Of a DNA stretch of 64,000 bases, positions 50,046-63,862 are shown in pieces. The stretch's first letter is position 1. Each line of letters starts with the position of its first letter. The notes under the pieces were generated by a model that was given only the letters and a program-made list of their open reading frames with translations, searched no databases and was not told the origin of the DNA. The position numbers were made by a program, and so were the translations under genes. The stretch comes from an uncultured Eubacteriales bacterium (GTDB lineage: Bacteria > Bacillota > Peptococcia > Peptococcales > SKKY01), in NCBI GenBank assembly GCA_964642925.1, contig CAZXPJ010000004.1:15420-79419 (forward strand). Reading direction: 5' to 3'.

Positions 50046-50876
50046 TCAATATTTAAGTTTTTTATCTAGAATATTCTCTGCTTCCTCTATATTATCCGGT
50101 ATTTCAAGATTATGCCCTCTACTCTTTAATCTTTGAAATAGTTCGGATAAAATTGGGGGCTCAAGATTTGCCTCCTTTAGAATTTGAGTTTCCGCAAAAA
50201 CTTCCCTAGGTTTACCTTTTTTTACGATTTGCCCATTATTTAAAATATAAATCTTATCCGCAACTTCCGGTACTAGGTTAATATCATGAGTTGTCATAAC
50301 TATGGTAATACCAAAGTCCTTATTAAGAAAGTTAATTATTCCCAGCATTTCTTTTTTCGATTCAGGATCAAGAGATTCAAAGGGTTCATCTAAAATCAAT
50401 AATTCTGGAAACATTACAATAGCTCCTGCTAAAGCAACTTTTTTCTTTTGCCCTCCACTTAAGTAGTGAGGTATCTTTTCTAATAAATGTTCAATCTTTA
50501 AAATACGGGAAATCTTTAATACTTTTTCTCCTACTTCTTTTTCGCTTAATTTTGCGTTTCTCGGAACAAAAGCTATATCGTCATACACTCTAGGTCCTAT
50601 TATTTGTTCATCAACATTTTGGAAAACTACCCCAATTTTTTTACGGATATTCTTAAATTCTTTAACTGGATTTAATCCCATTACTTCTACGCTTCCTTCT
50701 ATTGGAGCTAAAAGACCTAAAATATGGGCAAGTAAAGTAGTTTTACCAGCTCCATTAGGTCCAAGGATTACAATTCTTTCTCCTTTTAGAACATCAAAAT
50801 CCAAACCACATATTTTAACCTCTGTTTTATCAGGATAGATATGTTTTAAGCACTTTACTTTTATTATAGATTCCAT
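50046..50876 (-). CDS. cbiO: ECF transporter ATPase (CbiO/NikO type)
   Basis: Walker A GPNGAGKTT and signature LSGGQKKK. Overlaps the T-component gene by 13 nt. Confidence 0.85.
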   Translation of the reverse strand: MESIIKVKCLKHIYPDKTEVKICGLDFDVLKGERIVILGPNGAGKTTLLAHILGLLAPIEGSVEVMGLNPVKEFKNIRKKIGVVFQNVDEQIIGPRVYDDIAFVPRNAKLSEKEVGEKVLKISRILKIEHLLEKIPHYLSGGQKKKVALAGAIVMFPELLILDEPFESLDPESKKEMLGIINFLNKDFGITIVMTTHDINLVPEVADKIYILNNGQIVKKGKPREVFAETQILKEANLEPPILSELFQRLKSRGHNLEIPDNIEEAENILDKKLKY

Positions 50877-51577
50877 GGTATTAACACCCCAATTATTAAA
50901 ATAATCCCTATGACAATTAATATATAATCCTTCTTACCCTTAATAAGAATTATATTTCCTGATGGTAATTTACCATCATAACCCCTTAATGAATAAATTT
51001 TATACATCCTCTCGCTGGCTTCAAAAGAATGGATTATTAAAATGCCAATTATCCCAGCAATGTTTTTTATATTTTTGATAAAGTTAAATTGATGATATCC
51101 ACCTTTTAATTTTATACTTTTTAGAATATTTTCCAACTTTCCTAAGAGGATAAAAAATGACCGATAAGTAAAAAAGAGAATATCCACAATAACAGAGGGG
51201 AATATAAGATTTAAAATAGAAAATACTTCTATATAAGGAGTGGTTAATATTAACCAAATCATAGAAAATGCTGATCCTATTGCTTTTAGCATAATAATTA
51301 ATCCTTGGTTAGGAGTATCTTTTATTATAATAAGGGCAAAAAAAGTACTGAAAAATGCTGGATATAACAAAAGTTTTAGGGCTGTTTTAAAGGGGATTGC
51401 AGAGATTATTGATATAATTATGATTACTAATATCAAGAATACTATTTTTTCTAATTCCCGGGAAAACAGAAAGCCAAAGAGTAAAAGGGCTGCAAAAATC
51501 ATTTTTGCAGCTGGTCCACATTTATGAATTTTTGTTGTTCCATTTATAGAAACATTATCAATATGAGCTAAATTCAT
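50864..51577 (-). CDS. cbiQ: ECF transporter T component (CbiQ/NikQ type)
   Basis: 237-aa polytopic protein lying between the M and O components. Confidence 0.75.
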   Translation of the reverse strand: MNLAHIDNVSINGTTKIHKCGPAAKMIFAALLLFGFLFSRELEKIVFLILVIIIISIISAIPFKTALKLLLYPAFFSTFFALIIIKDTPNQGLIIMLKAIGSAFSMIWLILTTPYIEVFSILNLIFPSVIVDILFFTYRSFFILLGKLENILKSIKLKGGYHQFNFIKNIKNIAGIIGILIIHSFEASERMYKIYSLRGYDGKLPSGNIILIKGKKDYILIVIGIILIIGVLIPWNL

Positions 51578-51589
51578 AATACACCATCT

Positions 51590-52219
51590 CTATTCCGAAA
51601 TAATATCAGGTCTTACCTTTTGAAAATATCTTATAATGAAAGCTGTAGCTACTGATTCAATAAATATACCTATAAGAACTATAGAAATTAATACACTAGC
51701 TTCACCAGAATGAAGATGAAAGGGCATTTCCCCCGATGTACCTAAGGCTGTAATAAATAACAAAATCATTGTAGAAACAGAAGCAGTTAAAGCTAGGCCC
51801 ACAGAAATAAAAGTTCTAGCAAATATACCTATTTTATATAGTACTTTTCTAAATAAAAAAGAAGAAATTAAAACTTCAGAACCAATTATTAAGGTGTTTA
51901 AACCAATTATAGTAATACCACCATGACCAACTAGAGCTAGTATTAGATTAACAGAGAATACTGCTAAAAACCCAAGACTAGGACCTAAAAGAATAGATAC
52001 TAAAGATGCAAGACTAAGATGAAGAGGTAAAATACCCAAGGGGATAGACATGGCTAAAAGCATTATAGCTGCTGCTATTCCTGTAAAAGGTATCTTTTTT
52101 TTAATTTCCTCAAGATCCATTTGTTTTGTAAGATAGAACAAGATAATAAAAGTTAGAATATATCCTGATACCCATATAAATGGTGATAAGACACCGTCGG
52201 GAATATGTAAATGACTCAT
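51590..52219 (-). CDS. cbiM: metal-specific ECF S component (CbiM/NikM type)
   Basis: 209 aa. The N-terminus MSHLHIPDGVL contains the HIPDG signature of CbiM/NikM. AAGGAGGA lies 6 nt before the ATG. No CbiN/NikN gene is present. Confidence 0.75.
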   Translation of the reverse strand: MSHLHIPDGVLSPFIWVSGYILTFIILFYLTKQMDLEEIKKKIPFTGIAAAIMLLAMSIPLGILPLHLSLASLVSILLGPSLGFLAVFSVNLILALVGHGGITIIGLNTLIIGSEVLISSFLFRKVLYKIGIFARTFISVGLALTASVSTMILLFITALGTSGEMPFHLHSGEASVLISIVLIGIFIESVATAFIIRYFQKVRPDIISE

Positions 52220-52293
52220 TTTAAATCCTCCTTAAATGCGAATAGTTTGCATTTATCTTCATTAAGATTATCTTTTTCTCCTCTATTTGTCAA

Positions 52294-52345
52294 TAAAAAA
52301 GGCTTTATCCATAATCAATCTCTTGAAAGAGGGATAAAACCTTTT
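52294..52345 (-). terminator. probable terminator after the LarA-family gene, immediately before the cbiM promoter
   Basis: 12-bp stem AAGGCTTTATCC / GGATAAAACCTT with one mismatch. On the minus strand it is followed by TTTTTTATTGACA, so the T-run runs into a TTGACA -35 box at 52288-52293. Confidence 0.5.
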
Positions 52346-52352
52346 ATATTTC

Positions 52353-53603
52353 CTATATTACCATTGGTATAGTGGAACCAGCTTTTGGCATTGAATAAAC
52401 TAGGCCCCCACTAATCTTTTCCTTGGCCATTTCTAATGCTTGGGTTAGATCTTTAGCTTTTTTAACCTGTAGAGTTTTCGCTTCTTCTTCAGTAATTCCA
52501 TCACTAACAATTATCACTTCTGCTTTACTTAAACTTTGAGCCCAAAGGAAAGCTTTATGCGCACCTACTCTAAAAGGTAATTTAGCAAATTCCTCTAATA
52601 CTTTTTCAGGAGTATCCCCTAAATTCATAGTTTCCACAAAAAGATCTGATCCTATTCCCTCTACACACTCTGCACAAAGAATAATAGTTCCACCTTTTTT
52701 TACCGCCAAGGCTGAATGTAAAAGTGCTTTTTGAGCTTGATACATATTGATATCCTTAGGATATCCACCAGCACTAGCAATTACTACATCAGCTTCTTGA
52801 TTAATACTTACTTGAAGAGCTGATTTAGCAGCTTCAACACCAACTTTATGAGCTAAAAAAACATCTCCAAAAACTGCTTTTACAACTTCTTTTTTACTAT
52901 TTAATACCACATTAAAAATAAAATCTAGTTCTACTATCCTACCGATTTCATCAATGTCAGCTCTTAATGGGTTACCTTCTATCACACCAAGGCTTGCCCC
53001 GGGCTTAGTCAACATGGCATGATTAGTATTAACTAAATCTACTCCTGCCATTCCAATACTTACTCCTTTTACACCACCACTAAATCCAGCAAATTGATGA
53101 GGATCAATTACCCCAAGAGAAATTTTTAAATCTGATTCAAAATATTCTTTATTAATGTGAATTGGTGTTCCTCTAGATGTTGTTCCTAAATCGATTAACT
53201 TCGAAGGATCAAAAGCATCATGGGATACTACTTTAAATCTTTTGCTAACTTCCTCACCTAATATTTCAGGCATTTCAGATTCACCACAAACTCTGTGAAG
53301 CCCTGTTCCAATCATTATTGTAATCTGCTCATCTTTTATTCCCATTGCATTCAACTTTTCCACTAAAGGTGGAATTAATAATTCATTAGGAACGGGTCTG
53401 GTCGCATCACTAGTTACGATACAAACTTTCCCTTTGCTTTCAAAACCTTCTAAAGATTTTCCAATAGGCTCATTTAGTGCTCGTAGGATTTCTTCTTCAT
53501 TAGTAAAAGGAAGTTTTTCTTCAGAAATATTCAATTTTTTAAAGGGAAAATCTACTTCTTTTTCAATATAACCTTTACCATAGGGAATGCTTAATAAAGC
53601 CAT
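52353..53603 (-). CDS. LarA-family (DUF2088) nickel-pincer-cofactor-dependent racemase/epimerase homologue
   Basis: 416 aa. SDATRPVPN, GTGLHR, DPHQFAGFSGGVKG (Lys aligned with the cofactor-tethering Lys of LarA) and a downstream NHAM His. GAAGGAGGAG lies 7 nt before the ATG. Confidence 0.75.
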   Translation of the reverse strand: MALLSIPYGKGYIEKEVDFPFKKLNISEEKLPFTNEEEILRALNEPIGKSLEGFESKGKVCIVTSDATRPVPNELLIPPLVEKLNAMGIKDEQITIMIGTGLHRVCGESEMPEILGEEVSKRFKVVSHDAFDPSKLIDLGTTSRGTPIHINKEYFESDLKISLGVIDPHQFAGFSGGVKGVSIGMAGVDLVNTNHAMLTKPGASLGVIEGNPLRADIDEIGRIVELDFIFNVVLNSKKEVVKAVFGDVFLAHKVGVEAAKSALQVSINQEADVVIASAGGYPKDINMYQAQKALLHSALAVKKGGTIILCAECVEGIGSDLFVETMNLGDTPEKVLEEFAKLPFRVGAHKAFLWAQSLSKAEVIIVSDGITEEEAKTLQVKKAKDLTQALEMAKEKISGGLVYSMPKAGSTIPMVI

Positions 53604-53620: not shown

Positions 53621-55723
53621 TTAAATAAATTCAGCTTTTCTTTTTTCTAAAAAAGCATTAATGCCTTCTGCAAAATTACCATCGTTAGCTAATTCTACTT
53701 GATATTCATATTCAAGGTCAAGAAAATCAGATAGTTCTGGATAATTAATTTTATTTACTAAATCTTTTGTTTTTCTTAAAGATTCTCCTGGTTTTGCAGC
53801 AAGTTTTAAAGCGAAGTTTTTAGTTTCTGTAGCTAATTCTTCCTCTTTAGCTAAAATATTTATTACCCCAAGATCATAAAGTTTTGTAGCTAAAATAACC
53901 TCTCCCAACATAGCTAATTCCATAGTTTTAGAGGGATTTAAAGCTTTACTTAAAAAGTAGGTTCCCCCCATATCAGGAATTAGACCAATATTTACAAAGG
54001 CTTGGACATACTTTGCTTTTTCTGAGGATACAATGAAATCGCAGCATAATGCTAAGTTGAAGCCTGCCCCTGCTGCTGCTCCATGAACACAAGCTATTAC
54101 TGGTTTCCCTATATCTCTTATTCTCAAAGCTAAAATGTTAACTTTTTTAAGTAATGGTTTAAAAAAATCATTTATATCTTTCTCTAAATAGGTTTTCATA
54201 CCTTGGATATCTCCTCCAGCAGAAAAACCTCTACCTAAACCTCTGATAATAATTACTTTACAATTCTCATCCTTTTCACATTCATCTAGAGCATCAATCA
54301 TCTCTTCTAGAATCATTTCGTCAAAGGCGTTAAGATTCTCTGGTGAATTCATTCCTATATAAGTAATTTTCTCTTCTTTTTCAATTACTATTTTTGTGTA
54401 TTCCATTTTTATTTCTCTCCTTTTTATATTATCTAATATTTTATCTTTGGCCATACCTTTAATTTGCATTCTAATAGCTTCATCTAAAATTCTTTTGAAT
54501 TCTAGAGACTCCTCTAGACCTAATTCTAAAAGTTCCCTTCCCGTAAGCAAGGGTTTGAAATTTTTAGCTTTATTTATTATGTTCTTAGATTCTACTTCTT
54601 TTTCAAAATCTATTTTAAATTTAGTAAAATTCATCCAATAATTTGTATGTAAAGTAAGATGTTTATTTTCTTTCCTTATTAATTTTAGGAAGGTTTCTTC
54701 ATAGTTAGCTTTTCCTTTAACAAATTCTATAATTGCATTTAAAGATTTTAGGCTCGTCAAAACAAAATCAATATCATTTTTGTTTTTTGTAAAGGTTTTT
54801 AGGATTCTTTTAGTTTTTTCTATATAATCTTGAACATTCCATTCATCTAAGAAAAGAATAAATAAAAATGTCCATTTTTCAGATATTTTCATTTCTTCAT
54901 TAAAATAATCAATTATTCCATTTACATCTTTCTGCTTTTCCAAATTAGAATTTAGCAATTGGCTAAATTCTTCATGTCTTTTTAAAAAAACCTTTGCTTC
55001 TTGTAGAAAAAGTATACCTGAGATAATGTTTTTACCACTAAAAAGTTTTTCCATTTCCCAGCTGATTCTTTCTAGGGATAAGCTACTTATGTCCATTCTT
55101 TTACATAATTCCATGGTCTCAAAATCCACTGTAAAATCTAGCCTGGAAACAAATTGTCCTATCCTATAAACTCTTAAGGGATCTTCAATAAAAGTAGTGG
55201 AATTAACCACACGGATAACTTTTTTTTCTATATCCGAAAGAGCACCAAAATTATCTATTATTAGTTCTTTATTAAAGGAATACATTAGAGTATTCATCGT
55301 AAGGTCTCTTCTTTGCTGGGCCTCTTTAAAACTTAAAAAAGGATTAAGAGATATACTATAGTCCTTCCTAGTGATTCCCATCTTATTTTCTTTTCTGGGG
55401 AAGGAAAAATCATAAGGCTTATTTTCCATTTTTATAACACCAAAGTTTTTTCCTATTTCATTTATTTTGCCAAATTCACCTAATATTACCTTTATCCTAT
55501 CTATAAACTCTAATAGATAAACTTCTTTCTCTTTTTTTACCAAAAAATTGTATTTTTTTTTGCTCTTGGAATTAGCATAAATCTCAAAATCAAATTCTTT
55601 AGGACTTATACCTAAAATTAGGTCTCTTAAGCTTCCTCCTACTAAAAAGAGTTCTCCTTCAGCCTCTTTGATTCTTTCAGCAATTAGTAAAATCTCTTGA
55701 GAGAAAAGCTTATTGCTAATCAT
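53621..55723 (-). CDS. in-frame fusion: CCA-type (PolyA_pol family) nucleotidyltransferase (about 438 aa) + complete enoyl-CoA hydratase/crotonase (261 aa)
   Basis: The N-terminal part has GGSLRDLILG..EFDFE, RRDLTMNTLMY and EDPLRVYR. The C-terminal part has RGFSAGGDI and HGAAAGAGFNLAL crotonase motifs. A single 700-codon ORF. The junction carries AAAAGGAGAG-N8-ATG (ATG at 54404-54406). Confidence 0.75.
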   Translation of the reverse strand: MISNKLFSQEILLIAERIKEAEGELFLVGGSLRDLILGISPKEFDFEIYANSKSKKKYNFLVKKEKEVYLLEFIDRIKVILGEFGKINEIGKNFGVIKMENKPYDFSFPRKENKMGITRKDYSISLNPFLSFKEAQQRRDLTMNTLMYSFNKELIIDNFGALSDIEKKVIRVVNSTTFIEDPLRVYRIGQFVSRLDFTVDFETMELCKRMDISSLSLERISWEMEKLFSGKNIISGILFLQEAKVFLKRHEEFSQLLNSNLEKQKDVNGIIDYFNEEMKISEKWTFLFILFLDEWNVQDYIEKTKRILKTFTKNKNDIDFVLTSLKSLNAIIEFVKGKANYEETFLKLIRKENKHLTLHTNYWMNFTKFKIDFEKEVESKNIINKAKNFKPLLTGRELLELGLEESLEFKRILDEAIRMQIKGMAKDKILDNIKRREIKMEYTKIVIEKEEKITYIGMNSPENLNAFDEMILEEMIDALDECEKDENCKVIIIRGLGRGFSAGGDIQGMKTYLEKDINDFFKPLLKKVNILALRIRDIGKPVIACVHGAAAGAGFNLALCCDFIVSSEKAKYVQAFVNIGLIPDMGGTYFLSKALNPSKTMELAMLGEVILATKLYDLGVINILAKEEELATETKNFALKLAAKPGESLRKTKDLVNKINYPELSDFLDLEYEYQVELANDGNFAEGINAFLEKRKAEFI

Positions 55724-56694
55724 CTTTCTCTGCCTTTTCCTGAATCTGTAACATTTATTAATGATGGAGGAAATGCTTTAAAGATTTTCTGGTTCTTTAA
55801 ATATTCTTGATTAAATCTAATTGCCCAAGAATAAAGGACTGAAAGAGGTACTGAAAATGGTACTTTACTATTCCTATAATTCTCCAGATTGTCTAAGAAA
55901 AAAGCTTTTTCTTCATTATTTAACTCATCAGAAAAATAACCAAAGATATGAAACAACATATTTATTTTGGTTTTATAAGATGGGTTATTATTAAAGGCTT
56001 TTAAAAGATTTTTTTTATAATCTTTAAATATTTGTTCCACATTTTTTTTGTCATGATTTGCAATTATCCCACCTAAAATTTTTAATTGACTTTGATTATA
56101 GGTCATTAGCAAATACTTATTTCTCGAATGGAAATCTATTAAGTCCTTTATTTTCTTATTTGGTGCTAATCTTTGAAATTCGGCAATTACAAAGATTTTT
56201 GTCAAAAAATTTTCTCTTATAGTGAAATCACCTAATCTTGCCTCATCCTCTATAGGCAAGTTCTTATGATAGTTGAGTACTTTAGCACCGAAAATTCCTT
56301 TACCACTTTTACCAAGGGACATTACTTTTCCATGGGATTTATAGACCTTAACTTCTTTAATTCCGCAAGATGGAGATTTGCTTTTTAAAATTGCCCCATC
56401 TATTCCATCCGTATTTGCTTGCAAAAATTCTTGAGAAAAAGTAATCATTTTATCTGTAAAATCTTCCCCAGTATTTGATTTTACAAGACGTCTATCATCC
56501 TCGGATCCTATCAGTCGCAAACTTTCCCGTGGGCTTGGTAAACCAACAGCCATTTCGGGACAGACTGTTATGAAGTCTACATATTTTTTAAGATCTTCAA
56601 CGATCTTCGAAGATATCATTGATCCATCATAGCGGCAGTGATCGAATTCAATACATTTACTAATTAAAATTTTAGGTCTAGCAAAATTATTCAT
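55720..56694 (-). CDS. ybgA: DUF523 (TudS-like [4Fe-4S] desulfidase) + DUF1722 fusion, YbgA/RudS type
   Basis: 324 aa. Cys-containing segments SKCIEFDHC, VCPEM and SPSCG lie in the N-terminal half, and the C-terminal half is helical. Its stop overlaps the downstream start in an ATGA. Confidence 0.75.
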   Translation of the reverse strand: MNNFARPKILISKCIEFDHCRYDGSMISSKIVEDLKKYVDFITVCPEMAVGLPSPRESLRLIGSEDDRRLVKSNTGEDFTDKMITFSQEFLQANTDGIDGAILKSKSPSCGIKEVKVYKSHGKVMSLGKSGKGIFGAKVLNYHKNLPIEDEARLGDFTIRENFLTKIFVIAEFQRLAPNKKIKDLIDFHSRNKYLLMTYNQSQLKILGGIIANHDKKNVEQIFKDYKKNLLKAFNNNPSYKTKINMLFHIFGYFSDELNNEEKAFFLDNLENYRNSKVPFSVPLSVLYSWAIRFNQEYLKNQKIFKAFPPSLINVTDSGKGRER

Positions 56695-56706
56695 AATATC
56701 ATCCTT

Positions 56707-57990
56707 TTATATTTTATATAGTTCCAATGCTTTTAATCTCTGCTCCTTATGGTCCACAATAGGATAAGGATAATCCTTGCCAATAATAACCCCAACTTTT
56801 TCTTGCTCTATATCTGGCATTTTCCATGGTTCGTGAATATATTTAATTTGTATACTACTTAACTCCGGAACATATTTCTTTATGTAATTTCCCTCTGGGT
56901 CGAATTTTTGCGACTGGGTTATAGGATTAAAGATTCTAAAATAAGGCTGAGGGTCTGCTCCAGTAGAGGCAGACCATTGCCAACCTCCATTATTAAGTAT
57001 AACATCTCCATCTAACAAGTGTTCCATAAAAAACTCTTCTCCCTTCTTCCAGTCAATGAGAAGATCTTTTGTGAGAAAGGATGCTGTTAGCATTCTTAGG
57101 CGATTATGCATTATTCCTTCTGTTAATAATTGTCTGATTCCTGCATCTACAAAAGGGTAACCCGTTTTACCTTCCTTCCATTTTTTAAAATATTCTTCAT
57201 TGTTTTCCCAATAAATATCATTATATTTTTCCTTAAAAGAATTATTTAAAACATGGGGAAAGTAAAAATATAAATGATAATAAAAGTCTCTCCAGGCTAA
57301 TTGCCGAATAAAAGCTTCCCTATTTAAATCAAGATCTTTTATTTTTAAAGAATAATTATAAAGGCTAAGGGGAGAAAGCATTCCTAAGCTTAAATACTTA
57401 GAGAACTTTGAGCTTCCATCTTTCCCTGGAAAATCCCTGTCATCAATATAATTTTTAATCTTTTGGTCAAAAAAACCCCTCATAATTTTGATATTTTTTT
57501 TCTCATCTTTAATATCTTTATTTTTATTATACAAAACCTTCTGCCATTTTCTATAGAAAGGAGTAAACACCACATAAGGAGAACCATCATCTTTAAGTAC
57601 CTCCCCAGGAATTGTTAAAAGATAATCCTTATCAATAATATTCAAGGTTTCTTTTAGATTCTTAAAAAGATAATCTTCCTCTTCCTTTTCCCAGGGAAGA
57701 TAAAGTTTTTGTATATAAACTTCACCTATAAATTTAGGAGGGATAATAGAATTTGCCTTATCAATAATCCCACCCTGAATTATCTTCATTTTTCCCTTCT
57801 TAGCTTCAATATCTCTTTTTAACTCAGCTAAGATTTTCTTTAGATTCTTTTTATAGAAGTCCCCTCTTTTTTCTTTGTCTAGATTTTCTTCATTCCAAAA
57901 GTAATAAAATGTAGCGTCTTCTATGAAATCAAAATGAATTCTTAGATCCTTACGGAGAATATAAATATTTTTTTTCTTGTTTTCCACCAT
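56707..57990 (-). CDS. phr: deoxyribodipyrimidine photolyase / cryptochrome family protein
   Basis: FAD-domain motifs WRDFYYHL, TGYPFVDAGIRQL and NNGGWQWSASTGADPQPYFRIFNP. 427 aa, with a short divergent N-terminal domain. Confidence 0.85.
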   Translation of the reverse strand: MVENKKKNIYILRKDLRIHFDFIEDATFYYFWNEENLDKEKRGDFYKKNLKKILAELKRDIEAKKGKMKIIQGGIIDKANSIIPPKFIGEVYIQKLYLPWEKEEEDYLFKNLKETLNIIDKDYLLTIPGEVLKDDGSPYVVFTPFYRKWQKVLYNKNKDIKDEKKNIKIMRGFFDQKIKNYIDDRDFPGKDGSSKFSKYLSLGMLSPLSLYNYSLKIKDLDLNREAFIRQLAWRDFYYHLYFYFPHVLNNSFKEKYNDIYWENNEEYFKKWKEGKTGYPFVDAGIRQLLTEGIMHNRLRMLTASFLTKDLLIDWKKGEEFFMEHLLDGDVILNNGGWQWSASTGADPQPYFRIFNPITQSQKFDPEGNYIKKYVPELSSIQIKYIHEPWKMPDIEQEKVGVIIGKDYPYPIVDHKEQRLKALELYKI

Positions 57991-57993
57991 CTA

Positions 57994-60900
57994 TTATTCC
58001 TGCTTCTTTCTACTTTTTTCAAGATACATTCTTGCATCTGCTCTTTTAATCATTTTCTCTAAATTATCATTTATCTCCTCTCCAGAATTGGCAATACCAA
58101 AACTAAGAGTAATTGGAGCGTCTAGCCTTCTACTTATAATTTCCAAGTCTATTTTAATTCTATTTATTATAGAGGCTGGGGATTTATCTCCTTTTTCTCT
58201 TAAAACAATAAGAAACTCATCTCCACCATAGCGAATAAAGACATGGTCTTTTCTAATGTTTTTTTGAATAATTTCAGCCACTATTTTTATTGCCTCGTCT
58301 CCTTGAATATGCCCGTATCTATCATTGATATCTTTTAAATTATCTAGATCTAGAAAAATTAAACTTATATCTTCTTTGGTCATAATTCCATCCTCAAAGA
58401 AAATTTCTAAGAACTCCATACCTGCAGCTCTAGTCATTGCTCCTGTCATCGGATCTATCTTTGCTAGATATCTTAATCTTTTTTCATAAGCCTTTTTTTG
58501 AGTAATATCTTCTATTGTTGCGATAAACTTTTCTATTTCTCTATTATTAAATATAGGGTTGATTTTAACCCCCTGCCAGTAAGTTTCTTGGTTCTTTTTC
58601 TTGTTGTGAAGCTCCCCTTGCCATTCTTTCCCTTGGAGAATTGTTTCCCATAAATTTCTAAAAACTTCATTAGGAATTAATCCAGAACTTAAAAAGCTAG
58701 GGTTTTTACCAAGGACTTCTTCAGCTTGATAACCGCTCATATTAGTAAATTTTTTATTCACATATTCAATATTTCCATCGATATCCGTTACCATAATACT
58801 ATTAGGAACATTATCAAGAAACTCCAGGTAACCTAAGTTTTCAATCATTTCTTTATTAGTTACTTGGGTGATTATTATAACTATATCTCCTTTTAGACTA
58901 TCAGCAAAAGCTCCTTGATCTACTTTTATAATGGTATCCAAGAAATTACTGTCTTTTTTTATGATAGGTAGTTTAAAGTCTAATATAAAATTAATATCAT
59001 TTTTAACAAAATCCTTAAATTCCTTTGCTACTCTAGGGGTAGTTAGACTGTTAAAATTTTTTCCAAAGATATCTTTCTTTTCCCATTTAAAATATTCTTG
59101 GAACTTACTGTTAAATCCCTTAATATGAAAATTTTTATCTAATATAATTATAGGAAGTGGTAAATTATAAAATTTTTCTACTTCATCTATAAACTCTTCT
59201 ATACCTGTTTTTTTAATTTCAATTTTTTGGGCAAAAAACTTTTCAAAGTCTCCGAGTTTTATAGGTTTAGAGAATAGAAATCCTTGGACATATTTACAGC
59301 CTAATTGGTTTAGAAAATTATATTGTTTTAAATTTTCTACTCCTTCTGCTACTACATCAATTTCCAAATCTTTAGCAAGGGCTATTATATTTTTTACTAG
59401 GTATTCATCTGTTTTGTTTTCTAACAAACCACCTATAAAGGATCTGTCAATTTTAATTTCAGCAAAATTAACATGTTTCAATTTAGTCATAGAAGAACTC
59501 CCCGTACCAAAATCATCCATACTAAATCTAATTCCTATTTTATTTAATTTTTTTATTACTTCCTGTAAGTGTTCCCCTTCTTCAAAGATATAATTTTCTG
59601 TAACTTCCATCATGATTTTTTCTGCTTCTATTTCATATTTTGCTAATTTGTCTTTTACTATCTCAGGGAAATTATATTGTAGCAGCTGTTTACCTGAAAT
59701 ATTTATAGAGATAGGTATATTAATGTCTTTATATTCCCATCTCTTCTGAATCTTGCAAGCCTCATCTAAAACCCATTCCCCAATTTTTAAGATTAAATTG
59801 CTTTTTTCAGCGGTAGGGATAAATTCTATGGGTGTTATTAAGCCATGCTCTTTATGATTCCACCTTATAAGGGCTTCAGCTTTTATAATCTTTTCGGTAT
59901 TTAAATCTAAGATAGGTTGAAGATAGAGCTCAAATTCTCCTCTTTCCAGGGATTCATATATTTCTGTTTCCAACTCATATTCTTTTTTAATTTCAGCTTC
60001 AAGATCAACTGAAAAAGATACTAGATTTACTTCCCCATTGAGCTTAGCTTTGTTTTTAGCAAGGGCAGCTTTTCTAATAAGCGTTTCTTTAGAGGAGCCA
60101 TCCTCTGGATAAGAACTTATTCCAATATCAAGCTCTAGCCTATGCACAATATCATTAATTATAATTGGTTTTTTTAAAATTTTCATAAGATTCTTGGAAA
60201 ACTCAACAGCTTCTTCTTTACTTTTACCTTGATGAATTATTATAAATTCATCATCCTTAAATCTTGTTAAAATAATATCTTCTGATTGGCCTAATTTCAG
60301 GATATAAAGATTTATTAGTTTTGCTACCTGAAACAACATTCTATCTCCTGCTTCATATCCATATATTTCATTTATAACTCTAAATTTTTTTATATCTATA
60401 TAGATAAGTGAGAATCTTTCTTCCTTATTTACAAGGCTTTCTGTTTTCATTAGAAAGTAATTGTAATTATAAATGTCCGTCAAGCTATCTTTATAGGCTA
60501 GATCATTAAGTTTTCTCTCCATAACTATTTTATCTGTAACATCTACTCCCAGTAAAACAATTACATTTTCCTTTTTTCCTTCTAATAAAAAATAAAATTT
60601 TTCAAAATTTCTTATCTTATCTTTATTGTCCACAAAATAATTGATTTCTCTAAAGTAACCTTCCTTTTCAATTGTTTTTTTCTTTTCTATAAATTTCTCA
60701 TACTGTTCTGTAGTAAAAAAGTTACTAACTTTTTTTCCAATCCATTCTTTACCCTTTAGATTGTCTTTTGTGAATTTATTTACAAACTTACATTGTCCTT
60801 TTAAGTCCATAATCATAATTATTCCAGGAAAGTTATCCACAAGATTACTAAATAATCCTATTTTCCCTAAAATTGAATCATAAAAAGAATCCGACGTGAT

Positions 60901-61092
60901 TTTATCGGATTCACTATGTATTTCGAAAAGATTTACTAAAGGGGCAAGGGTTAATAAATCTCTTCTACTGTTATTTACTTCTGAGCATAGTTCTAGGTCA
61001 ATTATGGAAAAGTTTTTCTTATGAAGGCTTTCTTTAAAAAAAGAATCAATATCTTTAATTAAAGTTTTTATCTTTTGATTTAAATTATCCAT
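57994..61092 (-). CDS. multidomain c-di-GMP signalling protein: PAS - degenerate GGDEF - EAL - PAS-like - PAS - GGDEF
   Basis: The first GGDEF site reads KDDEF. The EAL motif is EALIRW. A PAS domain carries GKNPSFLSSG...WQGE. The terminal domain reads RYGGDEF. ATG at 61092 is preferred (GGTGA 5 nt upstream), whereas the track ORF starts at TTG 61104. Confidence 0.85.
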   Translation of the reverse strand: MDNLNQKIKTLIKDIDSFFKESLHKKNFSIIDLELCSEVNNSRRDLLTLAPLVNLFEIHSESDKITSDSFYDSILGKIGLFSNLVDNFPGIIMIMDLKGQCKFVNKFTKDNLKGKEWIGKKVSNFFTTEQYEKFIEKKKTIEKEGYFREINYFVDNKDKIRNFEKFYFLLEGKKENVIVLLGVDVTDKIVMERKLNDLAYKDSLTDIYNYNYFLMKTESLVNKEERFSLIYIDIKKFRVINEIYGYEAGDRMLFQVAKLINLYILKLGQSEDIILTRFKDDEFIIIHQGKSKEEAVEFSKNLMKILKKPIIINDIVHRLELDIGISSYPEDGSSKETLIRKAALAKNKAKLNGEVNLVSFSVDLEAEIKKEYELETEIYESLERGEFELYLQPILDLNTEKIIKAEALIRWNHKEHGLITPIEFIPTAEKSNLILKIGEWVLDEACKIQKRWEYKDINIPISINISGKQLLQYNFPEIVKDKLAKYEIEAEKIMMEVTENYIFEEGEHLQEVIKKLNKIGIRFSMDDFGTGSSSMTKLKHVNFAEIKIDRSFIGGLLENKTDEYLVKNIIALAKDLEIDVVAEGVENLKQYNFLNQLGCKYVQGFLFSKPIKLGDFEKFFAQKIEIKKTGIEEFIDEVEKFYNLPLPIIILDKNFHIKGFNSKFQEYFKWEKKDIFGKNFNSLTTPRVAKEFKDFVKNDINFILDFKLPIIKKDSNFLDTIIKVDQGAFADSLKGDIVIIITQVTNKEMIENLGYLEFLDNVPNSIMVTDIDGNIEYVNKKFTNMSGYQAEEVLGKNPSFLSSGLIPNEVFRNLWETILQGKEWQGELHNKKKNQETYWQGVKINPIFNNREIEKFIATIEDITQKKAYEKRLRYLAKIDPMTGAMTRAAGMEFLEIFFEDGIMTKEDISLIFLDLDNLKDINDRYGHIQGDEAIKIVAEIIQKNIRKDHVFIRYGGDEFLIVLREKGDKSPASIINRIKIDLEIISRRLDAPITLSFGIANSGEEINDNLEKMIKRADARMYLEKSRKKQE

Positions 61093-61122
61093 AATTATCA
61101 CCAACCCTATTAAAATTAAGTT

Positions 61123-63761: not shown

Positions 63762-63862
63762 GCTACTTATCAAGAGCGGTAGAGGGACTGGCCCTATGAA
63801 ACCCGGCAACCTGCAGTTATGCAAGGTGCTAACTCCAGAGGTATTATGCCAAAGATGAGATC
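63762..63862 (+). promoter_or_regulatory. SAM-I (S-box) riboswitch aptamer
   Basis: CTTATCAAGAGCGGTAGAGGGACTGGCCCTATGAAACCCGGCAACC...AAGGTGCTAACTCCAG...AAAGATGAG matches the S-box core. The P1 stem pairs CTTATC with GATGAG. Confidence 0.9.

What the first reader, a model, noticed from the sequence alone, without database searches (positions are those of the whole stretch)
53621..55723. CCA-type nucleotidyltransferase and a full-length crotonase joined in one ORF, one homopolymer slip away from two genes
Residues 1-438 carry the PolyA_pol/CCA head and neck motifs. These are GGSLRD, acidic pair E-x-D (EFD in EFDFE) in place of DxD, RRDLTMNTLMY, and the EDPLR nucleotide-selection motif. Residues 440-700 form a standard-size enoyl-CoA hydratase. 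The junction reads GAT AAT ATA AAA AGG AGA GAA ATA AAA ATG GAA on the minus strand. That is a textbook SD (AAGGAGAG) 8 nt before an ATG (54404-54406), with TAA out of frame in GAAATAAAA. Deleting one A from the A5 run (plus-strand T5 at 54421-54425) would end the first protein at ...DNIKGEK-TAA, 2 nt before that ATG. There are three possibilities. It may be a recent or real fusion whose crotonase is also made alone from the internal start. It may be a slippage-controlled two-state locus. Or it may be a homopolymer sequencing error. A tRNA nucleotidyltransferase covalently linked to an acyl-CoA enzyme is unexpected in any of these cases.
Basis: seen in the sequence. Interest (0 to 1): 0.7.

Follow-up and report, generated by a model that had tools for sequence, protein, structure and literature searches.

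The report
Real, recent nucleotidyltransferase–crotonase gene fusion
Two neighbouring genes, a CCA-type tRNA nucleotidyltransferase and a crotonase-family acyl-CoA enzyme, are separate in every related bacterium but joined into one 700-residue reading frame here by a one-base insertion; the fusion is real, not a sequencing error or an on/off switch, and nothing yet shows it creates a new activity.

Summary
Window 53621-55723 (-) is one 700-aa ORF: a full class-II tRNA nucleotidyltransferase (residues 1-438) followed by a full crotonase (440-700), with a Shine-Dalgarno site and an ATG preserved at the joint.

- **Sequencing error is excluded.** Eight independent read-set assemblies carry the identical junction. 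Five protein variants at over 99% identity are all 700 aa.
- **A slippage switch is not supported.** No split allele turned up, and A/T runs of five or more occur about every 80 nt in this 31% GC DNA.
- **The fusion is derived and recent.** Eight related lineages (nucleotidyltransferase 41-72% identical) keep two separate, adjacent genes, usually overlapping by 4 nt. The fusion needed a lost TGA stop, shared with the nearest split relative, plus one extra A between the Shine-Dalgarno site and the start.
- **The gene pair is clade-specific.** No other such fusion appeared among 1.84 billion cluster representatives. Slightly more distant relatives carry each gene alone.
- **The stronger link is upstream.** The nucleotidyltransferase overlaps a RudS tRNA 4-thiouridine desulfidase gene, which follows a photolyase gene.
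- **The crotonase lacks both hydratase glutamates** and resembles PaaG/FabM isomerases.

Verdict: a genuine, lineage-restricted fusion of co-translated neighbours. It is a modest curiosity, and any functional coupling is unproven.

The parts
53621..55723 (-). Fused ORF, 700 aa (nucleotidyltransferase plus crotonase), stop codon included
   Evidence: The protein is identical to the NCBI-sourced cluster member P0123.
54410..55723 (-). Class-II tRNA nucleotidyltransferase part (residues 1-438): head, neck, body and tail
   Evidence: PF01743 scores 61.6 bits. Motifs A-E are present. The AlphaFold model has pLDDT 90.8 and superposes over its full length on CCA-adding enzymes 3H37, 6Q52 and 1MIV at TM 0.62-0.65.
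55589..55597 (-). Codons for E43-F44-D45, the metal-binding pair of motif A, with Glu where canonical enzymes have the first Asp
   Evidence: It aligns to DFD of E. coli poly(A) polymerase. E-x-D is invariant in the clade, while outside relatives have D-x-D.
54421..54425 (-).
   Evidence: It has the same length in the fused and split forms, so it is not the site of the fusion event.
54415..54423 (-). Shine-Dalgarno AAAGGAGAG, which also encodes K-R-R of the nucleotidyltransferase C-terminus (...IKRRE)
   Evidence: It is conserved in the split relatives, where it serves the separate crotonase gene.
54406..54410 (-). A5 run ending in the A of the ATG. It contains the extra base that puts the two genes in one frame.
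   Evidence: The Shine-Dalgarno-to-start spacer is 8 nt here and 7 nt in the split relatives where it could be measured (L002, L091, L093, L012). Deleting one A here recreates the 444-aa plus 261-aa arrangement of L002, with its 19-nt overlap.
54404..54406 (-). Internal ATG (Met440), the ancestral crotonase start codon
   Evidence: It aligns with the ATG/GTG starts of the 261-aa crotonase genes of relatives.
53621..54406 (-). Crotonase-fold part (residues 440-700 plus stop), of the PaaG/FabM type
   Evidence: PF00378 scores 187 bits. The best NCBIfam hits are FabM and PaaG, both below their cutoffs. The best PDB matches are 2EJ5 and PaaG 4FZW_C. The hydratase glutamates are replaced by Asn and Phe.
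55720..56694 (-). Upstream gene with TudS and DUF1722 domains (RudS architecture). Its stop overlaps the fusion ORF's start (ATGA).
   Evidence: PF04463 and PF08349. The RudS function comes from PMC11417400. The same 4-nt overlap with the nucleotidyltransferase gene is seen in relatives.
56707..57990 (-). DNA photolyase gene, immediately upstream of the RudS gene
   Evidence: PF00875 and PF03441. It is conserved upstream in L011, L012, L091 and L097.
52353..53603 (-). LarA-family nickel-pincer racemase homologue, 17 nt downstream of the fusion ORF, with its own Shine-Dalgarno site
   Evidence: NCBIfam malate racemase LarAH5 scores 508 bits against a cutoff of 462. It follows the crotonase in L002, L003, L091, L092, L013 and L095 but not in L011, L012 or L093.

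Best explanation
This is a genuine, evolutionarily recent in-frame fusion of two neighbouring genes that were already translated as a coupled pair.

In the ancestor, as in all relatives today, a roughly 435-aa class-II tRNA nucleotidyltransferase gene ended a few bases inside the start of a 261-aa crotonase gene, in a different frame. The Shine-Dalgarno site of the crotonase gene lay within the last codons of the nucleotidyltransferase gene.

Two small changes joined them. First, the overlapping TGA stop became TGG; the nearest split relative shares this step. Second, one extra A appeared in the 7-nt spacer between the Shine-Dalgarno site and the start, in this lineage only.

The species now makes a 700-aa polypeptide in which each half most likely keeps its old job. 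The N-terminal half adds or repairs tRNA 3' ends, within an operon that also encodes photolyase and the tRNA 4-thiouridine desulfidase RudS. The C-terminal half assembles as a crotonase oligomer and carries out isomerase-type chemistry on an acyl-CoA or acyl-ACP thioester. The retained Shine-Dalgarno site and ATG may also yield some free crotonase.

Shown: the DNA-level fusion, its derived state, and the intact domains. Inferred: the order of the two mutations, the activity of both halves, and internal initiation.
For: **Reality of the fusion**
- The identical 32-nt junction is present in 8 Logan assemblies from separate sequencing runs.
- Five sequence variants differ by 1-2 residues and are all 700 aa. 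They come from NCBI, ENA and Logan sources.

**Derived state**
- Separate adjacent genes are found in L002/L003 (19-nt overlap), L091/L092, L093 and L012 (4-nt overlap), L013 (11-nt overlap), L095 (15-nt gap), L096 and L011.

**Mechanism**
- The indel lies in the spacer run (alignment A1).
- The spacer is 7 nt in split forms and 8 nt here.
- Removing one A there restores the exact 444+261 aa layout of L002.

**Both halves intact**
- All nucleotidyltransferase motifs are present, and the full-length fold matches CCA-adding enzymes.
- The crotonase domain is complete.
- dN/dS against L002 is 0.27 for the nucleotidyltransferase and 0.06 for the crotonase, with similar dS of 0.61 and 0.56.

**Independent function of each half**
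- The nucleotidyltransferase occurs without the crotonase in L094.
- The crotonase occurs without the nucleotidyltransferase in L176.
- The nearest outside crotonase sits in a beta-oxidation-type cluster.

**tRNA role**
- The nucleotidyltransferase gene overlaps a RudS-type gene by 4 nt, downstream of a photolyase gene.
Against: - No expression, protein or activity data exist for either form.
- The first catalytic carboxylate is Glu rather than Asp, so activity is assumed, not shown.
- The nucleotidyltransferase is under much weaker constraint than its neighbours. dN/dS is 0.45 in its body and tail, against 0.007-0.06 for RudS, the crotonase and LarA. The fused copy could therefore be partly disabled.
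- The dN/dS values average over the whole divergence, not just the period since the fusion.
- The pair stays adjacent across nine lineages (this one and eight relatives) while both flanks change. That could mean more than inherited gene order.
- All assemblies are consensus sequences, so minority length variants would not be seen.
Confidence: 0.8

Rival explanations
1. Rosetta-stone reading: the nucleotidyltransferase and the crotonase work together as a complex in the whole clade, and the fusion only makes that partnership covalent. The crotonase oligomer might act as an RNA-binding or scaffolding partner. Alternatively, an acyl-CoA-linked step might be coupled to tRNA 3'-end handling.
For: - Nucleotidyltransferase-then-crotonase adjacency is kept in nine lineages (this one and eight relatives), down to 41% nucleotidyltransferase identity. 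Meanwhile the upstream genes (RudS and photolyase, or a 116-aa ORF) and the downstream genes (LarA and CbiMQO, or a two-component system) vary.
- Start and stop codons overlap in most of these lineages.
- Fusions tend to join interacting partners (general principle).
- From my own knowledge, not tested here: human AUH is a crotonase-fold hydratase that also binds AU-rich RNA.
Against: - Each gene is found alone in the next-closest lineages (L094; L176).
- None of about 155 CCA-enzyme loci outside the clade has a crotonase nearby.
- No second, independent fusion appears in the best 150 hits among 1.84 billion representatives.
- The crotonase keeps the ordinary acyl-CoA enzyme motifs, and its outside relatives sit in beta-oxidation clusters.
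- The two genes evolve at very different rates.
Confidence: 0.15
2. The fusion is a mildly harmful accident that cripples the nucleotidyltransferase, for example by blocking tRNA binding at its tail. It is tolerated because the enzyme is an accessory paralogue, and the crotonase is still made from the internal start.
For: - The nucleotidyltransferase is the fastest-evolving gene of the cluster: 71% identity against 92-98% for its neighbours in the same comparison, with body/tail dN/dS of 0.45.
- The joint has essentially no linker. The tail helix runs to residue 437 and the crotonase Met is residue 440.
- The Shine-Dalgarno site and ATG are retained.
- NCBIfam CCA equivalog cutoffs are missed by a wide margin.
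Against: - There are no stop codons, frameshifts or motif losses in 438 residues.
- The fused allele is the only one seen in samples from several projects.
- Fast-evolving C-terminal halves are usual for class-II CCA enzymes (my own knowledge).
Confidence: 0.12
3. Slipped-strand (phase-variable) locus: the length of one A-run toggles between a fused state and a two-gene state.
For: A one-base change in either A5 run converts one state to the other. The nearest relative is in the split state.
Against: - The tracts are only 5 nt, and 812 such runs occur in 64 kb.
- All eight assemblies and all five protein variants of this species are in the fused state.
- The split relative differs by substitutions as well as length (GAAGTAAAGTG against GAAATAAAAATG) and by about 0.6 synonymous changes per site. 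It is a diverged lineage, not an allele.
Confidence: 0.03
4. A homopolymer sequencing or assembly error has merged two ordinary genes.
For: The junction lies in A-rich sequence. One related long assembly (L011) does show a frameshift in an A-run of its crotonase gene.
Against: The identical junction was assembled independently from at least eight read sets, and is also present in NCBI and ENA records.
Confidence: 0.02

Closest known systems
Bacterial class-II CCA-adding enzymes (Thermotoga maritima 3H37, Planococcus 6Q52, Geobacillus stearothermophilus 1MIV)
   Same: The head-neck-body-tail fold matches over the full length (TM 0.62-0.65). Motifs GGxxRD, RRD, DxxGxxxD, EDxxR and ERxxxExxK are present. 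There is no deletion in the loop between motifs A and B.
   Different: The first metal carboxylate is Glu (E-x-D). There is a clade-specific helical insertion of about 20 residues in the head. Only about 20% identity. NCBIfam CCA cutoffs are not reached. A crotonase is attached to the tail.
E. coli-type multifunctional Cca (nucleotidyltransferase plus C-terminal HD domain)
   Same: It is a precedent for a second enzymatic domain appended to the C-terminal side of a class-II tRNA nucleotidyltransferase. Many out-clade homologues found here carry PF01966.
   Different: The appended HD domain acts on the same RNA 3' end (my own knowledge). Here the appended domain belongs to an acyl-CoA enzyme family with no known RNA substrate.
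PaaG (1,2-epoxyphenylacetyl-CoA isomerase) and FabM (trans-2-decenoyl-ACP isomerase) crotonases
   Same: These are the best NCBIfam and PDB matches. They share the G-L-I-P-D Asp and the absence of the hydratase glutamates.
   Different: Scores are well below the equivalog cutoffs (205 against 400; 200 against 345). There is no paa or fab gene context. The substrate is unknown.
AUH, a crotonase-fold hydratase that also binds RNA (from my own knowledge, not tested)
   Same: It is the only known link between the crotonase fold and RNA, so it is the nearest precedent for a functional reading of the pair.
   Different: AUH is a single-domain protein with both hydratase glutamates. No RNA-binding feature was tested or shown for the crotonase here.
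RudS light-response operons (photolyase plus TudS-DUF1722), PMC11417400
   Same: A photolyase gene is followed by a TudS-DUF1722 fusion gene. The paper reports RudS genes in operons with DNA photolyases.
   Different: The paper does not mention a tRNA nucleotidyltransferase or CCA enzyme as a neighbour; both terms had zero occurrences. In this clade one follows RudS with a 4-nt overlap.

Membership tests
Class-II (PolyA_pol / CCA-adding) tRNA nucleotidyltransferase | PolyA_pol head domain (PF01743) above Pfam's gathering score | tested here: met
   61.6 bits against a cutoff of 23, residues 25-171.
Class-II (PolyA_pol / CCA-adding) tRNA nucleotidyltransferase | Motif A: GGxxRD followed by the two metal carboxylates D-x-D | tested here: inconclusive
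   GGSLRD is present. The carboxylate pair is E43-x-D45, invariant in the clade, while outside relatives have D-x-D. The change is conservative, but its effect on activity is unknown.
Class-II (PolyA_pol / CCA-adding) tRNA nucleotidyltransferase | Motifs B (RRD), C (DxxGxxxD), D (EDxxR) and E (ERxxxExxK), plus a third carboxylate | tested here: met
   R138-R139-D140, D157...D164, E180-D181-P-L-R184, E218-R219...E223...K226 and D105 are invariant or nearly so in alignments A2 and A3.
Class-II (PolyA_pol / CCA-adding) tRNA nucleotidyltransferase | Full head-neck-body-tail architecture | tested here: met
   The model has pLDDT 90.8 and pTM 0.84. Foldseek hits to 46 CCA-adding, A-adding and poly(A) polymerase chains have E below 1e-8, with TM up to 0.65 across about 440 columns.
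Class-II (PolyA_pol / CCA-adding) tRNA nucleotidyltransferase | Reaches an NCBIfam equivalog cutoff for a CCA enzyme | tested here: not met
   The best hit is PRK13299 at 91.9 bits against a cutoff of 290.
Class-II (PolyA_pol / CCA-adding) tRNA nucleotidyltransferase | Adds CCA (or CC, or A) to tRNA, and is the cell's housekeeping enzyme | not testable with these tools
   No whole genome of the organism could be scanned. No tRNA genes occur in the window or in 12 related loci.
Crotonase (enoyl-CoA hydratase/isomerase) superfamily | Full-length ECH_1 domain with the oxyanion-hole segments | tested here: met
   PF00378 scores 187 bits and covers 248 of 251 profile positions. The FSAGGDI and GAAAGAG segments align to rat hydratase and PaaG.
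   The two positions align to Asn and Phe. An Asp occupies the PaaG-type G-L-I-P-D position.
Crotonase: PaaG or FabM equivalog | NCBIfam equivalog cutoff | tested here: not met
   FabM 205 bits against 400. PaaG 199.9 bits against 345.
Phase-variable (slipped-strand) contingency locus | A long simple-sequence tract, unusual for the genome | tested here: not met
   The tracts are A5. The window holds 812 A/T runs of five or more in 64 kb.
Phase-variable (slipped-strand) contingency locus | Both tract lengths present among members of one population | tested here: not met
   All 8 assemblies and all 5 protein variants are in the fused state. This is consensus-level evidence only; reads were not available.
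Rosetta-stone fusion of functionally interacting partners | The partners are encoded separately in other genomes | tested here: met
   Eight related lineages have separate, adjacent genes.
Rosetta-stone fusion of functionally interacting partners | Association beyond inherited gene order: independent fusions, or co-occurrence outside the clade | tested here: not met
   No other fusion was found. Each gene is alone in L094 and L176. No crotonase lies near about 155 out-clade loci.
Rosetta-stone fusion of functionally interacting partners | Physical or functional interaction of the two proteins | not testable with these tools
   A correct full-length or paired alignment could not be built with the tool. 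No complex prediction is available.

The most novel reading that the evidence does not exclude
The nucleotidyltransferase of this Clostridia clade may not be the housekeeping CCA enzyme. It could be a fast-evolving, E-x-D-type paralogue dedicated to light or UV stress. In that reading it is co-translated with the tRNA s4U desulfidase RudS, and repairs or tags damaged tRNAs. The conserved downstream crotonase would be its physical partner, and this species' fusion would be the Rosetta stone that reveals the complex.
Probability: 0.12. Interest if true: 0.7.

Novelty: new variant of a known kind. Interest (0 to 1): 0.35.

Why it matters
This is a clean natural example of how tightly overlapped, translationally coupled genes become one gene. 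A lost stop codon and a single inserted base were enough, and the ancestral ribosome-binding site is still embedded at the joint.

The domain combination, a CCA-type nucleotidyltransferase plus a crotonase, was not found anywhere else in a very large protein collection.

If the conserved pairing reflects a real partnership, it would link tRNA 3'-end maintenance to acyl-thioester chemistry or to a crotonase scaffold. It would also add a nucleotidyltransferase to the recently described RudS/photolyase light-response module. If not, it remains a harmless curiosity confined to one species.

Tried and rejected
- **Exact-sequence look-ups** of the window protein and of P0123 found no contig on record. 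The near-identical P0001 and P0121 were used instead.
- **A JGI metagenome scan** with a junction pattern that allowed either A-run to vary found nothing, so no extra alleles came from that source.
- **The promoter and terminator scan** gave counts no higher than shuffled sequence and was not used.
- **Literature searches** for a link between CCA-adding enzymes and coenzyme A, and for a nucleotidyltransferase-hydratase fusion, found nothing relevant.
- **PADLOC** gave no defence-system match.
- **Rfam** found only an unrelated SAM riboswitch.
- **No tRNA genes** were found in the window or in related loci. Whether CCA is genome-encoded could therefore not be judged.
- **Full-length structure prediction was abandoned.** MAFFT twice placed the C-terminal 85-170 residues of the separate nucleotidyltransferases onto the crotonase columns, and custom alignments cannot be submitted.
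Full report
**Observation**

The window carries one uninterrupted 700-codon ORF on the minus strand, 53621..55723.
- A5 at 54421-54425.
- AAAGGAGAG at 54415-54423.
- An 8-nt spacer.
- ATG at 54404-54406.

Pfam places a PolyA_pol head domain at residues 25-171 and a complete ECH_1 crotonase domain at 448-699. The description is accurate.

The homopolymers themselves are not informative. This 31% GC window has 812 A or T runs of five or more, about one every 79 nt.

**Is the fusion real?**

The window protein is identical to an NCBI-sourced member (P0123) of a 90%-identity cluster. That cluster holds five distinct 700-aa sequences differing by one or two residues. Eight Logan assemblies built from separate sequencing runs contain the identical 32-nt junction. 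The runs are SRR8925715, -746, -748, -760, -761 and -796, plus SRR19317543 and SRR29457792.

A single-assembly homopolymer error is therefore excluded. No split-state allele of this species was seen. These are consensus assemblies, so minority variants cannot be ruled out.

**Which state is ancestral?**

| Locus | Nucleotidyltransferase identity | Arrangement |
|---|---|---|
| L002 / L003 | 72% | 444 + 261 aa, 19-nt overlap, GTG start |
| L091 / L092 | 60% | 4-nt overlap |
| L093 | 54% | 4-nt overlap |
| L012 | 51% | 4-nt overlap |
| L096 | 52% | adjacent |
| L011 | 50% | adjacent; its crotonase start is frameshifted |
| L013 | 42% | 11-nt overlap |
| L095 | 41% | 15-nt gap |

Every relative with a readable junction has two genes, so the fusion is derived and restricted to one species-level lineage.

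**How it arose**

The length difference lies between the Shine-Dalgarno site and the start: GAAATAAAAATGG here against GAAGT-AAAGTGG in L002.

In L002, L091, L093 and L012, where the spacer could be measured, it is 7 nt, which puts the crotonase start out of frame with the upstream gene. Here it is 8 nt. The ancestral xTGA overlap stop is TGG in both this lineage and L002.

The most economical history has two steps:
1. TGA changed to TGG, extending the upstream ORF into a 19-nt overlap. This is the L002 state.
2. One extra A entered the run at 54406-54410, producing the in-frame fusion.

Removing one A there in silico regenerates the L002 layout exactly: 444 aa plus 261 aa with a 19-nt overlap. 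The order of the steps is inferred.

**The N-terminal half**

All class-II nucleotidyltransferase motifs are present and conserved in the clade:
- GGSLRD.
- E43-x-D45.
- D105, within YDFSFPR.
- RRD.
- DxxGAxxD.
- EDPLRVYR.
- ERIxxExxK.

An AlphaFold model has pLDDT 90.8 and pTM 0.84. It superposes over its whole length on CCA-adding enzymes from Thermotoga, Planococcus and Geobacillus at TM 0.62-0.65.

Three things set it apart:
- The first metal carboxylate is Glu. This holds throughout the clade, whereas outside relatives have D-x-D-x-E.
- The head carries a helical insertion of about 20 residues.
- The NCBIfam CCA equivalog cutoffs are missed by a wide margin.

It is best called a divergent class-II tRNA nucleotidyltransferase. 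Whether it is the cell's only CCA enzyme could not be tested.

**The C-terminal half**

The domain is a complete crotonase, but it is not a canonical hydratase. An Asp sits in the G-L-I-P-D position shared with PaaG.

The best NCBIfam matches are FabM and PaaG, both below their cutoffs. The nearest outside relative (47% identity, Crassaminicella profunda) lies in a cluster with a CoA transferase, a FadB-like protein, a thiolase and an acyl-CoA dehydrogenase. An acyl-thioester substrate is therefore the sensible default.

**Is there a functional link?**

Arguments for a link:
- The pair stays adjacent in nine lineages (this one and eight relatives) while both flanks change.
- The two genes usually overlap.

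Arguments against:
- A 36%-identical nucleotidyltransferase that also has E-x-D is followed by a BioY transporter gene, with no crotonase.
- A 64%-identical crotonase follows a BioB-like radical-SAM gene, with no nucleotidyltransferase.
- About 155 CCA-enzyme loci from Campylobacterota and Fibrobacterota have no crotonase nearby.
- An exhaustive HMMER search of 1.84 billion cluster representatives gave no other protein with both domains among its best 150 hits. The multidomain hits were CoA transferase plus crotonase, tandem crotonases, and nucleotidyltransferase plus HD. One caveat applies: fusions hidden inside clusters whose representative is unfused would be missed, as this one is.

On balance the pairing looks like inherited operon structure. 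A real partnership is not excluded.

**Context and rates**

Upstream, with a 4-nt ATGA overlap, lies a TudS-DUF1722 gene, preceded by a photolyase gene. This architecture is RudS, an experimentally characterised tRNA 4-thiouridine desulfidase reported to sit in light-responsive operons with photolyases (PMC11417400). That paper does not mention a nucleotidyltransferase neighbour. The RudS-to-nucleotidyltransferase overlap recurs in most relatives. It supports a tRNA-directed role for the N-terminal half.

The nucleotidyltransferase is also by far the fastest-evolving gene in the cluster. The comparison below is with L002.

| Gene | Amino-acid identity | dN/dS |
|---|---|---|
| RudS (C-terminal fragment) | 98% | 0.007 |
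| Nucleotidyltransferase | 71% | 0.27 overall (0.18 head/neck, 0.45 body/tail) |
| Crotonase | 92% | 0.06 |
| LarA homologue | 95.5% | 0.04 |

Synonymous divergence is comparable, between 0.56 and 0.62, for the nucleotidyltransferase, crotonase and LarA segments; the short RudS fragment gives 1.06. Relaxed constraint may explain why an appended domain at its tail is tolerated.

**Verdict**

The fusion is real, recent and lineage-restricted. It formed by a trivial mutational path from a translationally coupled gene pair. Sequencing error and phase variation are rejected.

The architecture is new, but nothing shows a new function. The most interesting open thread is the conserved module of photolyase, RudS, nucleotidyltransferase and crotonase. 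Interest is modest (0.35). I class it as a new variant of a known kind.

Noticed in passing
window 55720-57990 (-); also L011, L012, L091, L093, L096, L097: A photolyase gene is followed by a TudS-DUF1722 (RudS, tRNA s4U desulfidase) gene, whose stop overlaps the nucleotidyltransferase start by 4 nt. This looks like a conserved light/UV tRNA-care module. The RudS paper (PMC11417400) does not mention a nucleotidyltransferase or CCA enzyme.
   Followed up: partly
window 54410-55723 (-) compared with L002 185-1519: The nucleotidyltransferase evolves far faster than its neighbours: 71% identity against 92-98%, with dN/dS of 0.45 in the body and tail against 0.007-0.06 for RudS, the crotonase and LarA. 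The same ranking holds in all relatives.
   Followed up: yes
window 55589-55597 (-): The clade-invariant E-x-D replaces the canonical D-x-D metal-binding pair. It comes together with a helical head insertion of about 20 residues that outside relatives lack.
   Followed up: partly
window 50046-53603 (-): A LarA-family racemase homologue passes the NCBIfam malate racemase LarAH5 cutoff. It is followed by CbiM, CbiQ and an ABC ATPase, probably a nickel or cobalt importer. No LarB, LarC or LarE genes were seen among the ten ORFs scanned between 38 and 51 kb.
   Followed up: partly
L011 7300-7400 (OZ245787.1, Peptococcia MAG chromosome): The crotonase gene of this relative is frameshifted near its start, in an A-rich stretch. 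This is either an assembly error or a real lesion.
   Followed up: no
window 38183-39214 (-): A second, unrelated crotonase-superfamily gene (ECH_2, 358 bits, resembling 3-hydroxyisobutyryl-CoA hydrolases) lies next to an aldehyde dehydrogenase gene.
   Followed up: no
L094 2750-3307 and L176 241-1203: Where the pair is broken, biotin genes appear. The lone nucleotidyltransferase is followed by a BioY transporter gene, and the lone crotonase is preceded by a BioB-like radical-SAM gene.
   Followed up: no
window 63764-63861 (+): A SAM riboswitch (RF00162, 77.5 bits), unrelated to the finding.
   Followed up: no
window 57994-61104 (-): A 1036-aa PAS-GGDEF-EAL protein gene lies 3 nt upstream of the photolyase gene. 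It is conserved there in L001, L004, L012 and L097. Its PAS motif reads GKNPSFL and lacks the Cys of LOV blue-light sensors (judged by eye).
   Followed up: no
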